Part shown: one piece after another, positions 23,080-27,802 of the stretch
Layout of the letters: each line of letters starts with the position of its first letter
Numbering within the stretch: position 1 is the stretch's first letter
Source of the DNA: Sminthopsis crassicaudata
Taxonomy: Eukaryota
Length of the DNA stretch: 64,000 nt
Direction of reading: 5' to 3'
NCBI RefSeq assembly: GCF_048593235.1
Contig: NC_133620.1
Span: forward strand, 441,283,261-441,347,260
Notes under the pieces: generated by a model
Databases searched by the model: none
What the model was told of the DNA's origin: nothing
What the model saw: only the letters and a program-made list of their open reading frames with translations
Made by a program: the position numbers and the translations under genes

Positions 23080-23427
23080 TGTCCGTCCAGCGGGACTCAA
23101 TTATTTGGGGGAAGGGGTCGAGGGGAACCCAGCCTGAAAGAGAATCAGGCGAGAAAGAAGAGTGAGACCAAGCAAGTTCTTGTCAAGGTCTATTTTAATG
23201 TTCTCAGGCACGGCTTATATAGCAAAAAGCATGAGGAAGAGAAGTAGGGTTGGGCCTGGGAAGGGAACATGGGCAATGGCTGGTTCAACGCACAGGAACA
23301 TATTGCAATTGGGACATACAATGTTGGAACATTCTGTGGTCGGCCAATTCTCAGAACTGTTTGCCTAAGGGTGTGGTTCCCATGCAGGGGAGAAGGGCAC
23401 CTGGGCCGAAGCTGTTGGCTCTCAACA
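23080..23427 (-). repeat. 3' LTR of element 2
   Basis: TG...CA termini on -; TATATAAG and ATTAAA; differs from the 5' LTR by 3 substitutions and 1 indel. Confidence 0.97.
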
Positions 23428-23445
23428 TTTCCCCCTTTTCTCTTT
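23428..23445 (-). promoter_or_regulatory. Polypurine tract
   Basis: AAAGAGAAAAGGGGGAAA on - abutting the LTR TG. Confidence 0.92.
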
Positions 23446-23486
23446 AGAAGGCAAAAAGATTTTTCTACACAAGGGCTGGTGAAAGG

Positions 23487-23727
23487 CCTGTCTTAGGCTA
23501 TGTGGCTTGCACCCATGCTCCGTACCTAGATAACCAGGCCCTCAGGGCCAAGAAGGGTAGGGCCCCTGTCTTAGGCTATGTGGGTGGCCCCGCCCCCAGC
23601 ATCTTCACCAAAATTGGCTGAAGCGTGTCTCTGGGAGCGGACCCACAATAATTGGACATTGGGTGTCCCTGCAGCCATAAAAGGTATACTTCCGGGTCAT
23701 GGGGCCACAATATTCCCGTCATTGGCT
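23487..23727 (-). promoter_or_regulatory. CTE-like RNA export element
   Basis: Exact 19-nt direct repeat CCACATAGCCTAAGACAGG (23487-23505, 23565-23583) and AGCCAATGACGGG (23715-23727) between env and PPT; resembles the type-D CTE as I recall it. Confidence 0.7.
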
Positions 23728-23771
23728 CTTTCACAGCAATAGCCGTACTTTTGCAACTAAGGTCGTGTCCC

Positions 23772-24410
23772 TCAGAGGTACCCCCATACCCTTAAGTACC
23801 ACAGGGACTGAATCTCTGTGGCAAGGGTAGAGAATCGAAGGCTCTCATGGGCAATGGTAGAAGGGAGGTCATCACAGGATCCATTGGCACTAAGCTGATG
23901 ATAAAGAACAGCGACAGGTTTTTGCAGGGCAGAATCGACCTGTGACTTGATGAAACTAGTCAGTTTGTTGAAGGCCCATGGGCCGAAGGAGAGAAGCAGC
24001 AAAACACCTACAAAGGACCCTAAAAGACTGGGGAGTAAAGTGGTAAGCCAGGGGGATGTAGAGAACCAATTTTGATACCAGGATTTGTTCTGCTCTCTGT
24101 CTCTCTTTCTTTTTTCTAGGCTTTCTTTGACCTTTTTCAGACTATCTTCTACAAGGCCAAGCTTATCAGTATAGAAGCAACATTCTTCTTTTAATGCAGC
24201 ACAAAGGCCACCCTGTTCCAAAAAGAGGAGGTCTAAGTCTCCTATTCTGCAGGACTACTTCAGCCAGAGAGGCGACAGAGTCTTTAAGGTGCTCCAGGCC
24301 TGACTACAGTTCCTGAAGATTTTTGTCAATAGCTGCACTGAGCTGAGCATACTGCAAGTTGGAAGTAACTAAGGAGGCAATTCCTGTTCCTGCACCCACT
24401 GACCCCAGGC
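23772..24410 (-). pseudogene. env: Gammaretroviral-type env TM only (SU absent)
   Basis: GLGSVGAGTGIASL fusion peptide, SLAEVVLQNRR-LDLLF ISU (frameshifted), GGLCAALKEECCFY (CX6CC), SPWLTTLL, membrane anchor; one stop and one frameshift. Confidence 0.93.
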
Positions 24411-24436
24411 CTGGTGTGCAGGAGGATCAGTGGCCC

Positions 24437-25290
24437 TTATGAAAAATGGTCACAGAAGCCTAAGCCTGTATGGTCTGTCTTAGGGGTGGTCGTTATGGGT
24501 ATCAAGCTTCCCTGTCCATCTCTACCTAGGCCCTGTCCAGGAAGGAATCCTTGGGAAAGCATTTGCTGGGCAACGACCGCATTGGGGCTACACATAAGGA
24601 TTCCCATTTGGGATAAAATATCTCTCCCCCACAAGTTAACAGGCAGGCCGGGAAGGACAAATGGCCGCACAGTGCCTGAATTTCCTTCCCCATCCTTCCA
24701 AACCAATAGTTGTGAGCTCTGCAGGGTGTTTTTGGACTGTCCGATGCCCTGCAAATGAATCATGGAAACCTGTAGGGGCCAGCTAGAGGGCCAGGCATCT
24801 TGTGAAAGGACAGTGGAATTGGCCCCAGAGTCTAAAATGCCTTTAAAAAAACTTTCCTTGTATAGTAAGTTTAAGAGTGGGACGCTCCTGAGTTAATACT
24901 CTGAACCCAATAAAGATCCGATGAACTGGGCTGAGACGCTACACGCCTGGCTAAAGCATTACCCCTTCTCCTAAATATCGGGTAGTCAGTATTTAAAGGG
25001 AGGGGCAACGCCTGAGCCATGCGCTGTCCCCGTGTGATGGAAACTGGGCCATAGCGGGCAGTAACTAACAACTTGATCTCACTGGTATAGTCATTATGGA
25101 CCAGAGAGGGGTGGATGGACAGACCATTAAGGGTAGAGGAGGCGCGACCCAAAATCAAAAGATAAGTAGTGGGTGGAGGGGTGGCCGAAGACACCCGTTG
25201 AAAGAATCTGCACTCCATCCTCCGGATTTAATATTGCTGAGGAGGAGGCACCTAAGTCCACCCCTGCGCTGCCTAGGGTTGCTCGGAGGA
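24437..25290 (-). pseudogene. pro: Betaretroviral pro: dUTPase, protease, G-patch
   Basis: RATLGSAGVDL, NDYTSEI, GQRMAQ (dUTPase); ILDSGA, NLWGRDIL (protease); QGFLPGQGLGRDGQG (G-patch). Confidence 0.92.
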
Positions 25291-25339
25291 GGGAGAGTGG
25301 GTTTTCGGGCTGCTCCCCGAGGCCCGGACAAATGGTATG

Positions 25340-27303
25340 GGCTGAGGGGCGGCAGGTGTTAGCCCAATGTCTCCCCTTCCTGCAACGGGGGCAGACTGTG
25401 GGGGGTTGGGTTGGCCAGACCACAGGACCCGCAGATGGCGGGGCATTGCCGGGGCACTGGCGGGCAAAGTGCCCAGGCTGGCCACATCAAAAACAAGCTT
25501 TAGGCATGGACGGGCCACTTATTTGGCTTGTTTGGAGAGCTGCCCCAATTGCAAGATGTACAGCCTGTGACATTTTGGTGGAGAGGGGGTCCACGTCGTG
25601 GCACATGCAAATCATTTCATCAAGGGTCTCTAAATTTATCTCTTATCTCTAAATTTGCCGCGTAGCACAGTCTTACAGGCAGAATTGGCATTCTTATATG
25701 CTAAGTGCTAAACAAGTTGGTCATTGGCCGCCTCATGCCCAAAAGTCCTTTCGGCAGCCTCAAGTAGGCAGCTGACATATTCAGAAAAATTTTCCTGGCT
25801 ACCCTGAAAGATTTTGTTTAGGGGGGCAAAGGGCGAGCCTGTACTAAGCAGGGCTCTCCACGCGGCAAGGGCAGCATTAGCAGTTTGGGCTAAAAGGCCA
25901 ACAGGGAAACGTTGCTGTTGGGCCTCTGCCACATATTTCCCTTGTCCGCTGAGTTTCTCAAATGTCCAGTTCCCGGAGGGCGAGCATGGAGATTTTAAGT
26001 TAGCAGCGGCAGGGGACTGGCAATAATCAAAAAAGTCTGCCTTCCAAGTCAGGAATTGGCCACGTGACAGAACTGCTTGAACTACACGAACCCATTCAGA
26101 GGGGAGCATGTAGCCGCCGGGAGACATGGCCTCAAGGGCCAAAAGGATAAAAGGGGCGTTAGGTCCGTAGGCTTTGACTGCGGCGTTTAAGTCCTTTAAG
26201 GTTTTAAAATGGAGCTTACGGAACTCCCTCGGAGGGGCACCCTGCACTGTCTGATCATCTTCCTCATTTTCATTTTCATTTTCATTCTCCTCTTCACTAT
26301 CTGAATCGCCCTGAGAGTCTGTGCCCACAGCGGGCCCTTCAGCAGAGGATGAAGGGGAATCATCAGTGGAAGAAGCAATGGACTTATTGGAACGAGTCAT
26401 TATTGGAAAGGCCAATTTCAGGTTTTTTGATTTGCTAAGAGGGCCCTTCTTGTAAGGCAGTGAAGGAGGAGCAGCTGCTGGGCTTGAAGCCGGGAGGAGG
26501 ATGGTCTTTTTAAGTGAATTTTGCAAGGAAGAAAGTTCAGTAGAAAGCTGGAAAAATTGCCGTTGGAGATCGAGGACCTTCTTGAGATCATTAACTTGAG
26601 TCGAGAGCTGCTTTTTAGCCTCAATAAGGGTGGCAGGGGGTAGGGCGGAGGCGGAGAGAGCGAGCGCACAAATCGGGACTGCGTAAGGAGGGGGATGTTG
26701 CAAGGACCTGCTGTGAAAGGGGGCAAGTCAGGGTTGTTGTAACGGGCCACCTCTTTCTCCAGCACGGCCCTGTCCCCCGGCTCGAGGGCATCATCGTCAG
26801 AATTCCTAGTAAATATGGGGAAATTTAGCGAATCACCTGATGGAGGGGCTTCTTGAGGCAGGGGGGGGATAGAGGGACTCTCTTTGAATGGCAGGCATCT
26901 CAGTGATGACAGAGGGGGGCCTGGAAGGGCTCTTATCGGCCGGGGGAATAGAGGCCGCCTGAGACAAAGGGCGGAGGCAATATTCCGCGACTGACAAGAG
27001 CTGTTGTTTGTCAGGGTCTTTAGGTGCCGATTCTACAATATCATGAATCAAGCCCCAATAAGAGAAAACAGTTACGGGGACAGCATCCGGCCCCTCCTTT
27101 TGTAATTTATTATTTAGGTCTCTGCCTACTTTCTGCTATTTCTGGGGATGGATCTCGGGCCCGTTCACAGGAAACCAAGGACAAACTTCATCTATAAAAA
27201 GAAAGAACTTAACTAAATCTTTTTTCTTTACTTTAACTCCTCTTTCTCTGAAGGCTTTAAGGTCCTTTATAAAAACTTGTTCCCTAGATAACTTATGACC
27301 CGT
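25340..27303 (-). pseudogene. gag: Betaretroviral gag; start codon ACG, several lesions
   Basis: (M)GHKLSREQVFIKDLK..RERGVKVKKKDL..VCPWF MA; KTLKDLNAAVKAYGPNAPF CA; QGSQENFSEYV MHR; two CCHC knuckles CF*CGQPGHFARQC and CPRCRKGRHWANTC. Confidence 0.93.
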
Positions 27304-27433
27304 TTCTATGAGACGGACAGGTTAAGACTTACCAAGGACTGGAACTCTCATTAGAGGCGAAAGTAGTCCTTCCAATGGGGGTCGCGACGACTTCTCTGGG
27401 AGGGGGTCTGTCTGGCCAGGGTCCGTGCCTCAA

Positions 27434-27451
27434 GCCCCATGTTGGGTGCCA
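27434..27451 (-). promoter_or_regulatory. Primer binding site, tRNA-Lys(CUU) type
   Basis: TGGCACCCAACATGGGGC vs canonical TGGCGCCCAACGTGGGGC (16/18, both mismatches CG>CA), 2 nt from the LTR. Confidence 0.92.
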
Positions 27452-27453
27452 CT

Positions 27454-27802
27454 TGTCCCGTCCAGCGGGACTCAATTATTTGGGGGAAGGGGTCGAGGGG
27501 AACCCAGCCTGAAAGAGAATCAGGCGAGAAAGAAGAGTGAGACCAAGCAAGTTCTTGTCAAGGTCTATTTTAATGTTCTCAGGCACGGCTTATATAGCAA
27601 GAAGCATGAGGAAGAGAAGTAGGGTTGGGCCTGGGAAGGGAACATGGGCAATGGCTGGTTCAACGCACAGGAACATATTGCAATTGGGACATACAATGTT
27701 GGAACATTCTGTGGTCGGCCAATTCTCAGAACTGTTTGCCTAAGGGTGTGGTTCCCATGCAGGGGAGAAGGGCACCTGGGCCGAAGCCGTTGGCTCTCAA
27801 CT
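27454..27802 (-). repeat. 5' LTR of element 2
   Basis: Near-identical to 23080-23427; terminal TG altered to AG. Confidence 0.97.

What the first reader, a model, noticed from the sequence alone, without database searches (positions are those of the whole stretch)
23080..27802. Young recombinant provirus: betaretroviral gag-pro with a gammaretroviral TM
Seen: tRNA-Lys PBS, 6-bp TSD, dUTPase-protease-G-patch and two CCHC knuckles (class II), joined to a TM with LQNRR ISU and CX6CC that is close to MLV-type (GGLCAALKEECCFY, SPWLTTLL); LTR poly(A) signal is ATTAAA. Established: type-D betaretroviruses carry gamma-type env, and a type-D ERV is known from brushtail possum. Inference: the MLV-like TM and this gag may represent a separate env capture, and possibly a cross-species transfer into a marsupial lineage.
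Basis: partly seen in the sequence, partly recalled or inferred. Interest (0 to 1): 0.7.

Follow-up and report, generated by a model that had tools for sequence, protein, structure and literature searches.

The report
Gutted marsupial provirus driving spliced RNA
This is a dead, internally deleted copy of a marsupial retrovirus family whose beta-type core and gamma-type envelope were already joined in longer relatives of a published kind; it is likely older than its near-identical end repeats suggest, and its front repeat likely acts as a promoter for spliced RNA running into neighbouring host DNA.

Summary
The provirus is real (minus strand, 27802-23080): 6-nt target duplication, tRNA-Lys primer site, class II gag-dUTPase-protease-G-patch, gamma-type TM. 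The gag-pro/TM joint is not an env capture but a private 3.8-kb deletion of pol and SU: 4 of 20 sibling loci carry pol and env between the same two sides. The sibling SU is MLV/FeLV-type. The beta-core/MLV-type-env chimera is published for dasyurids (MEBrv1, Harding 2024). This family is a sister lineage (Pol 67%, TM 75%, different LTR), with Gag closest to koala and wallaby ERVs (76%, 74%). Its Env falls in one dasyurid clade that sits among rodent Envs, apart from true gammaretroviruses. 'Young' is doubtful: the LTRs differ by 0.9%, but about 16 reading-frame breaks and neutral private changes match siblings with 4-6% LTR divergence, so LTR conversion or late re-copying is likely. Unexpected: contigs of two runs (one study) splice the viral leader donor to exons 6-8 kb away, beyond the 3' LTR, with further exons up to 13 kb away, towards a histone H4 gene. 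No earlier scan note described this element.

The parts
27803..27808 (.). Target-site duplication, right copy (6 nt)
   Evidence: identical to 23074-23079
23074..23079 (.). Target-site duplication, left copy
27454..27802 (-). 5' LTR (349 nt) with TATA box at LTR position 207 and ATTAAA at 229; likely promoter of the spliced RNAs
   Evidence: promoter role inferred
27434..27451 (-). Primer-binding site, tRNA-Lys(CTT) type, two CpG-type mismatches
27327..27333 (-). Major splice donor in the leader (exon ends at 27333), used in spliced contigs
   Evidence: same donor in 8 of 8 sibling leaders aligned
25228..27303 (-). Broken gag: MA, PPPY late motif, CA, two CCHC knuckles; about 7 stops and 4 frameshifts against P0038
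24437..25350 (-). Broken pro: dUTPase, protease (LDSGA), G-patch; 3 frameshifts; 70-nt private deletion at about 25349
24408..24409 (-). Junction of a 3.76-kb deletion that removes nearly all of pol, the predicted env splice acceptor and all of SU; 2-nt microhomology
   Evidence: 1 of 37 matches spans it; spanned without differences by a 3,354-nt contig of run X8
23772..24408 (-). Broken gamma-type TM: part of the fusion peptide, LQNRR immunosuppressive domain, CX6CC, membrane anchor; 1 stop and 1 frameshift
23428..23445 (-). Polypurine tract
23080..23427 (-). 3' LTR (348 nt); read through in contigs of runs X7 and X8
20909..21052 (-). Flank exon spliced to the viral donor (in an older ERV relic, antisense)
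   Evidence: joints 21052-27333 and 19845-20909; acceptor and donor context
19710..19845 (-). Flank exon
   Evidence: joints 19845-20909 and 19466-19710
19322..19466 (-). Flank exon, joined to the viral donor in both runs
   Evidence: joint 19466-27332 in X7 and X8
14002..16554 (-). Downstream exons starting at alternative acceptors 16554 and 14030; 3' end not mapped
   Evidence: joints 16554-19322 and 14030-19322

Best explanation
It is a dead, pol- and SU-deleted copy of a multi-copy dasyurid type-D-like ERV family (beta core, MLV/FeLV-type envelope), likely inserted several million years ago with its LTRs likely homogenised later, and its 5' LTR likely drives spliced RNA into the flank. Shown: the anatomy; longer siblings with pol and env between the same two sides; an MLV-type receptor-binding domain in sibling SU; one Env clade with the published MEBrv1 family; GT-AG joints from the viral leader donor to flank exons in two runs and in neither of two DNA runs. 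Inferred: the parent was an infectious chimera formed long before this insertion; this copy decayed neutrally in place; gene conversion reset the LTR pair; the deletion removed the env splice acceptor, so the strong leader donor, helped by read-through of the ATTAAA signal, now pairs with cryptic acceptors beyond the 3' LTR and yields a likely non-coding RNA (longest ATG frame 52-92 codons) running towards the histone H4 gene.
For: L001 is colinear with the window copy plus 3.76 kb of pol and SU; L002, L003 and L005 also run pro-pol-env (4 of 20 loci). Sibling SU hits only MLV and FeLV receptor-binding-domain structures, 4 of 4 hits, best E 9e-32. Full-Env tree: 12 dasyurid rows form one clade (SH-aLRT 100) that includes L021, the MEBrv1 representative family. 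Same family in other dasyurid genera: TM 86-88% to Sarcophilus and Antechinus proteins, sibling Pol 79-87% to Antechinus P0002. Age: about 16 breaks against 12 in L001, whose LTRs differ by 3.9%; private coding changes 18 non-synonymous to 8 synonymous, the neutral ratio (0.69 seen, 0.71 expected); in the LTR tree both LTRs share a 0.04 stem while sister LTRs end in branches of 0.036-0.047. LTR conversion causing under-dating is documented (PMC4643047, passages). Splicing: 6 joints with CT..AC ends on the + strand in X7 and/or X8, none in X1 or X3; predicted env acceptor at L001 nt 5809 lies inside the deleted interval 3463-7219.
Against: The same age data fit late re-copying of an already dead template, and this family did spread defective templates (8 of 8 copies checked share one gag-deletion junction). 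The target duplication is perfect, and L017 also has a close LTR pair (1.4%). Window-private changes are at the low end among siblings in gag and pro (1.5-1.6% against 1.1-3.8%). No orthologous locus in another species could be read. X7 and X8 have no library type on record, come from one study, and are contigs, so start site, strand and level are not shown. Trees used broken genes projected on one scaffold protein, lacked KoRV, GALV, MoMLV, MPMV and SMRV sequences, and resolve the rodent/bat/marsupial part poorly on TM alone.
Confidence: 0.72

Rival explanations
1. Same identity, but the insertion is truly recent (about 1-2 Myr): an already decayed, pol-less transcript was packaged and reverse-transcribed in trans by an active relative using the same tRNA-Lys primer, giving fresh LTRs on an old interior.
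For: LTRs 0.9% apart, 1.0-2.2 Myr at the two rates used in PMC9231498. The deleted genome is carried as one unspliced 3,354-nt contig in run X8. Defective templates spread in this family: 8 of 8 copies share a gag-deletion junction, and 7 flanks compared gave one 49-nt match only. Related Lys-primed families with LTRs 99.6-100% alike are in the genome.
Against: No donor in the assembly: the deletion junction is spanned by 1 of 37 matches, the copy itself; best other LTR 91%, best pro 92-95% (40 of 308 and 40 of 59 candidates scored). The PBS carries two CpG-type mismatches. Two of the 4 LTR differences are at the outer ends, as an internal conversion tract would leave (P about 0.007, a test chosen after seeing the data). 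All 4 samples laid carry the copy.
Confidence: 0.2
2. One reading: a young recombinant in which this gag-pro captured an MLV-type TM in a separate, undescribed event, perhaps with a fresh jump into a marsupial.
For: Gag and Env neighbours differ: nearest named Gag is from koala and wallaby (76%, 74%), while no koala- or wallaby-named Env was among the best 120 of 303 hits and the nearest non-dasyurid named Envs are from rodents. An env swap somewhere in this radiation is therefore plausible.
Against: The joint is a deletion. The Env is shared with MEBrv1 and several other families in this genome. The family is also in Antechinus and Sarcophilus. The separate capture is in print.
Confidence: 0.04
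3. Assembly artefact: a collapsed or chimeric join of two family members, with LTRs made alike by polishing.
For: The family has many copies, and short-read contigs collapse the LTRs.
Against: A contig from another sample (X8) spans 23083-26436 with 0 differences, across both deletions; both host junctions are bridged with 0 differences in X1 and X3; the target duplication is intact.
Confidence: 0.02

Closest known systems
MEBrv1, marsupial endogenous betaretrovirus 1 (Harding et al. 2024, PMC11334065; main text parts 1-4 of 7 and supplement parts 1-2 of 12 read)
   Same: Type-D-like beta gag-pro-pol with MLV/FeLV/GALV-type env, Lys PBS, dasyurid host. Env in one clade with the representative's family (L021 matches the printed representative by eye over the first 120 nt and at the Gag, Pol and Env starts).
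   Different: Separate family: Gag CA-NC 55%, protease 59%, sibling Pol 67%, TM 75%; 348-nt LTR of other sequence against 453 nt; Gag not sister to possum TvERV; all copies examined here are broken.
Koala phaCin-beta and wallaby walb ERVs (Lillie et al. 2022, PMC9231498; passages, SI search and one part of Dataset S1 with sequences cut at 400 nt)
   Same: Nearest named Gag proteins: koala XP_020843560 76%, red-necked wallaby BCW03410 74%. R/U5, PBS and leader of pCi643 and pCi786 resemble this LTR by eye. Reported as beta core with gamma env, with relatives in Tasmanian devil and mouse.
   Different: Their env sequence could not be read, so its type is untested. U3 differs. That BCW03410 is walb Gag and that XP_020843560 is phaCin-beta is my inference from host and citation, not from a call.
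Possum TvERV-D and MPMV/SMRV type-D viruses (RDR-type env)
   Same: Class II core with dUTPase and G-patch, Lys PBS, gamma-type TM. Best structure hit of Gag is a betaretroviral Gag-Pro-Pol chain (naming it MPMV is recalled).
   Different: Gag 59% to TvERV AAF36393. SU is MLV-type; the SDGGGxxDxxR motif was found in 0 of 7 loci scanned.
Pangolin ERV-Beta.a-Mpen (PMC12584738, passages)
   Same: Beta core with a non-RDR gamma env. A pangolin-linked Gag cluster (66%) and Env cluster (TM 61%) share contig lengths 8588, 8475, 8316 and 5948, and that Env falls in the same wider Env clade.
   Different: The paper proposes a swap inside the pangolin genome; equating these clusters with that lineage is my inference.
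LTR-promoted chimeric transcripts of ERVs (general knowledge; search listing only)
   Same: A leader splice donor joined to host exons downstream.
   Different: No report for this family or host was seen in the listing.

Membership tests
Type-D-like betaretrovirus (class II, group VIII of PMC3621094) | tRNA-Lys1,2 primer-binding site | tested here: met
   16 of 18 nt match the genome's tRNA-Lys(CTT) end; intact in L001
Type-D-like betaretrovirus (class II, group VIII of PMC3621094) | dUTPase-protease-G-patch pro gene and two CCHC knuckles | tested here: met
   Pfam PF00692, PF00077, PF01585, PF00098, PF14787; first knuckle holds a stop
Type-D-like betaretrovirus (class II, group VIII of PMC3621094) | Class II pol | tested here: met
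   Absent from the window copy; siblings have YMDD RT, 67% to the MEBrv1 family Pol
Type-D-like betaretrovirus (class II, group VIII of PMC3621094) | Gamma-type TM (ISD and CX6CC) | tested here: met
Type-D-like betaretrovirus (class II, group VIII of PMC3621094) | Type-D particle morphology | not testable with these tools
   no particles; the copy is dead
MEBrv1 (Harding 2024) | Env grouping with type-C (MLV/FeLV/GALV-like) rather than type-D Envs | tested here: met
   SU hits MLV and FeLV RBD structures; one clade with L021 Env, SH-aLRT 100 and 97.7 on TM
MEBrv1 (Harding 2024) | gag/pol closest to possum TvERV | tested here: not met
   L021 groups with TvERV (UFBoot 100, 72%); the window family does not (59%) and forms its own clade, UFBoot 97
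MEBrv1 (Harding 2024) | 453-nt LTR of the representative, intact frames, identical LTRs | tested here: not met
   348-349 nt LTR of other sequence; broken frames
phaCin-beta / walb lineage | Gag/Pol clade with koala and wallaby sequences | tested here: inconclusive
   Highest identities (76%, 74%) but not sister in the Gag tree; joined only in a wider clade at UFBoot 82; their Pol was not available
phaCin-beta / walb lineage | LTR and env shared with phaCin-beta | not testable with these tools
   R/U5 alike by eye only; dataset sequences are cut at 400 nt
RDR interference group env (MPMV, SMRV, BaEV) | SDGGGxxDxxR motif in SU (motif as given in PMC12584738) | tested here: not met
   0 of 7 loci scanned, some with partial SU; SU is MLV-type
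Gammaretrovirus Env proper (MDEV, PERV, KWERV) | TM nests with these Envs | tested here: not met
   45-47% identity; AU p=0.001 against one clade; KoRV, GALV and MoMLV themselves were not in the tree

The most novel reading that the evidence does not exclude
The MLV-type envelope on these beta cores comes from one old capture that founded a second, unnamed type-D lineage now spread over dasyurid marsupials, murid and cricetid rodents, fruit bats, pangolins and shrews, and it reached dasyurids from a rodent virus. This dead copy has become the promoter of a spliced non-coding RNA in a histone gene cluster, because deleting its env acceptor redirected the viral donor to host DNA.
Probability: 0.3. 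Interest if true: 0.55.

Novelty: new member of a known kind. Interest (0 to 1): 0.3.

Why it matters
As a chimera it adds little: beta cores with gamma envelopes are well known, and the MLV-type version is published for dasyurids. It adds an undescribed sister family to MEBrv1 and a warning that LTR identity under-dates this copy. Two leads are worth a specialist's time. First, the Env tree ties the dasyurid viruses to rodent ERVs and to bat, pangolin and shrew sequences, which makes the route of this envelope into Australian carnivorous marsupials testable. Second, the locus offers a clean case of a deletion turning a provirus into a source of spliced host-flank RNA next to histone genes.

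Tried and rejected
Recombination at the visible joint: rejected. Membership in the MEBrv1 representative family: rejected. Nesting of TM with MDEV, PERV-B, KWERV and a Myotis Env: rejected. A donor or sister copy with the same deletion: none among 37 matches. An empty allele: no loose end at either host junction was listed in the DNA runs, but 192 and 143 loose-end rows were not shown and contigs drop rare variants, so this is no proof of fixation. Run X7 had no contig over the unique flank upstream of the 5' LTR; lack of cover is not counted as evidence for the start site. Only one species label held the stretch, but the index finds only near-identical DNA. The left flank 22450-23079 is single-copy. 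In the Gag tree L011, L014 and L028, and in the TM tree L012 and L015, have long branches from unrelated inserts or misread frames and were ignored. The first TM tree was badly rooted and was redone on 35 of those rows and on full Env, 30 rows. In the Pol tree L020 is an unrelated element. Baillie 2004 (rodent beta groups) was not held, so a link to mouse beta4 rests only on passages of PMC9231498 and part 1 of PMC7000388, which gives no env type. PMC9825726 (tenrec passages), PMC10536682, PMC3758190 and PMC10815390 (passages) gave background only. Searches for a report on this family, its rodent link or its transcript showed nothing beyond the papers cited; I read only the listed top rows, and subscription papers such as Hayashi 2022 are not held. 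Earlier scan notes: one unrelated note, nothing by sequence or words. No structure prediction was run, as the folds are known.
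Full report
Observation. The element lies on the minus strand from 27802 to 23080 between two copies of a 6-nt target duplication. Its LTRs (349 and 348 nt) differ by 3 substitutions and one 1-nt indel. The primer site matches the 3' end of the genome's tRNA-Lys(CTT) at 16 of 18 positions, both differences at CpG sites. Pfam confirms MA, CA, two zinc knuckles, dUTPase, protease, G-patch and a TLV_coat TM. Pol and SU are absent, and gag, pro and TM are all broken: about 7 stops and 4 frameshifts in gag, 3 frameshifts in pro, 1 stop and 1 frameshift in TM (two of the gag stops lie in one short insertion).

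The joint is a deletion. Searches of the own genome gave dozens of relatives (LTR: 44 matches, 40 of 308 candidates scored, best other 91%; TM region: 48 matches, 40 of 128 scored; pro: 52 matches, 40 of 59 scored). Of 20 loci fetched, L001 is colinear with the window copy from LTR to LTR but holds 3.76 kb more between the start of pol and the TM fusion peptide, and L002, L003 and L005 also run pro-pol-env. The window copy therefore lost pol and SU. The junction has 2 nt of microhomology, is spanned by 1 of 37 matches, the copy itself, and is confirmed by a 3,354-nt contig without differences from another sample. The beta/gamma junction of the family lies inside the deleted part.

What the envelope is. 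It is not close to gammaretroviruses proper either: window TM is 86-88% identical to Sarcophilus and Antechinus proteins, 71-81% to other families of this genome, 73-74% to Apodemus and Cricetulus Envs, 60-61% to Pteropus, pangolin-linked and one shrew Env, and 45-47% to MDEV and PERV-B. A clade of window TM with MDEV, PERV-B, KWERV and a Myotis Env is rejected (AU p=0.001), whereas all 13 dasyurid TMs form one side of a branch (97.7). On full Env the 12 dasyurid rows form a clade (SH-aLRT 100) whose nearest rows are Rattus (93) and Apodemus (84), inside a wider clade (100) with bat-, pangolin- and shrew-linked Envs. TM alone does not resolve the order inside that wider clade, and several rows are unnamed, so a rodent source is a lead only.

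What the core is. In the Gag CA-NC tree the window copy and 5 siblings form their own clade (UFBoot 97). Nearest named proteins are koala XP_020843560 (76%), wallaby BCW03410 (74%), bilby (69%), tenrec (67-68%), a pangolin-linked cluster (66%) and possum TvERV (59%). Sibling Pol is 79-87% identical to an Antechinus model and 62-68% to the MEBrv1 family in most copies.

Comparison with print. Harding et al. 2024 (PMC11334065; main text parts 1-4 of 7, supplement parts 1-2 of 12; figures not seen) describe MEBrv1 in dasyurids: TvERV-like gag/pol with an env that groups with type-C gammaretroviruses, called a recombination separate from the type-D one and likely imported. Locus L021 matches their printed representative by eye over the first 120 nt and at the Gag, Pol and Env starts, so the host is a dasyurid, likely a dunnart. 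The window family shares that Env clade but is a different family (Gag 55%, Pol 67%, TM 75%, other LTR). Lillie et al. 2022 (PMC9231498; passages and parts of the supplements) describe koala phaCin-beta, a beta core with gamma env related to wallaby, possum, devil, wombat and mouse sequences; its R/U5 and leader resemble this LTR by eye, but its env could not be read. A pangolin beta ERV with a non-RDR gamma env is also published (PMC12584738, passages). Env capture by class II viruses is recurrent (PMC3758190 and PMC3621094, passages). The finding is thus a new family of a known kind.

Age. The LTR pair (0.9%) gives 1.0-2.2 Myr at the rates used for koala, while 5 of 7 sibling pairs differ by 3.9-6.1% (4-15 Myr), one partial pair by 8.4% and L017 by 1.4%. 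The interior does not look young. It has about 16 breaks against 12 in L001; scaling L001 to 0.9% predicts about 3 (Poisson P about 1e-5, a rough test). Private coding changes run 18 non-synonymous to 8 synonymous, the neutral ratio. In the LTR tree both LTRs share a stem of 0.04, as long as the end branches of their sisters. Either gene conversion reset the pair, as documented for other ERVs (PMC4643047, passages), or a dead template was re-copied late. No donor was found, the PBS is decayed and 2 of 4 LTR differences sit at the outer ends, so I favour conversion. Re-copying stays open because 8 of 8 copies checked share a gag-deletion junction at unrelated sites.

The copy is likely a promoter. 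Of 10 runs listed, 8 hold the stretch, all of one species label and 3 studies. Contigs of X7 and X8 (two samples, one study, library type not on record) show joints 27332-19466, 27333-21052, 20909-19845, 19710-19466, 19322-16554 and 19322-14030. All read CT..AC on the + strand, that is GT..AG on the proviral strand, and none appears in DNA runs X1 or X3 (3 more joints were not shown). The donor at 27333 is the conserved leader donor of the family, and the acceptors have pyrimidine tracts. The predicted env acceptor of L001 lies in the deleted interval. I infer that, with it gone and the ATTAAA signal read through (an X8 contig crosses the 3' LTR end), the donor pairs with cryptic acceptors in older ERV relics downstream. 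The joined forms have ATG frames of at most 52-92 codons with assumed ends, so they are likely non-coding. They run towards a histone H4 gene at 12941-13252 on the opposite strand. Start site, tissue, level and function are not shown.

Verdict. The anatomy is confirmed and the interpretation partly supported: a separate MLV-type env capture exists but is old, shared and published, and this locus is a decayed deletion derivative rather than a young recombinant. New here are the undescribed sister family, the rodent-leaning Env tree and the spliced flank RNA. Interest 0.3; new member of a known kind.

Noticed in passing
window 12941-13252 (+), 46064-46723 (+), from 50264 (+), 1372-1453 (-): Histone H4, H1 and H2B-like frames and a tRNA-Ser gene: the window is part of a histone cluster (names read from the sequences).
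   Followed up: no
window 15200-17150 (+), 19500-21900 (+), 54070-57190 (-): Older ERV relics: a class II pol, a pol and env relic next to the provirus, and another class II pro-pol. The spliced exons lie antisense in the first two.
   Followed up: partly
window 23012-23080: A 33-nt repeat at 36-nt spacing ends at the insertion site and contains the target sequence twice.
   Followed up: no
L002, L009, L010, L011, L013, L014, L017, L018: Eight copies share one deletion junction in gag at unrelated sites, a defective subfamily likely spread in trans; five of the loci (L002, L009, L013, L014, L019) also share a 766-nt deletion at the pol/env border.
   Followed up: partly
G000 C7 47.9-49.3 Mb and C2 41.4-41.7 Mb: Clusters of family copies (8 TM matches on C7, 3 on C2), likely segmental duplications.
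   Followed up: no
L004, L021-L035, L038-L040: At least five further beta families in this genome carry Envs of the same clade with different LTRs, several with LTR pairs 97-100% alike.
   Followed up: partly
P0039, P0040 (Tenrec ecaudatus): Tenrec Gag proteins are 67-68% identical to the window Gag, closer than possum TvERV; their env was not seen.
   Followed up: no
   Followed up: partly
L017: A second copy with a close LTR pair (1.4%) on a rearranged interior.
   Followed up: no
window 27048-27349, run X1: A contig with 10 differences in 302 nt, not seen in X3 or X4: a divergent allele or a closer sibling in that sample.
   Followed up: no
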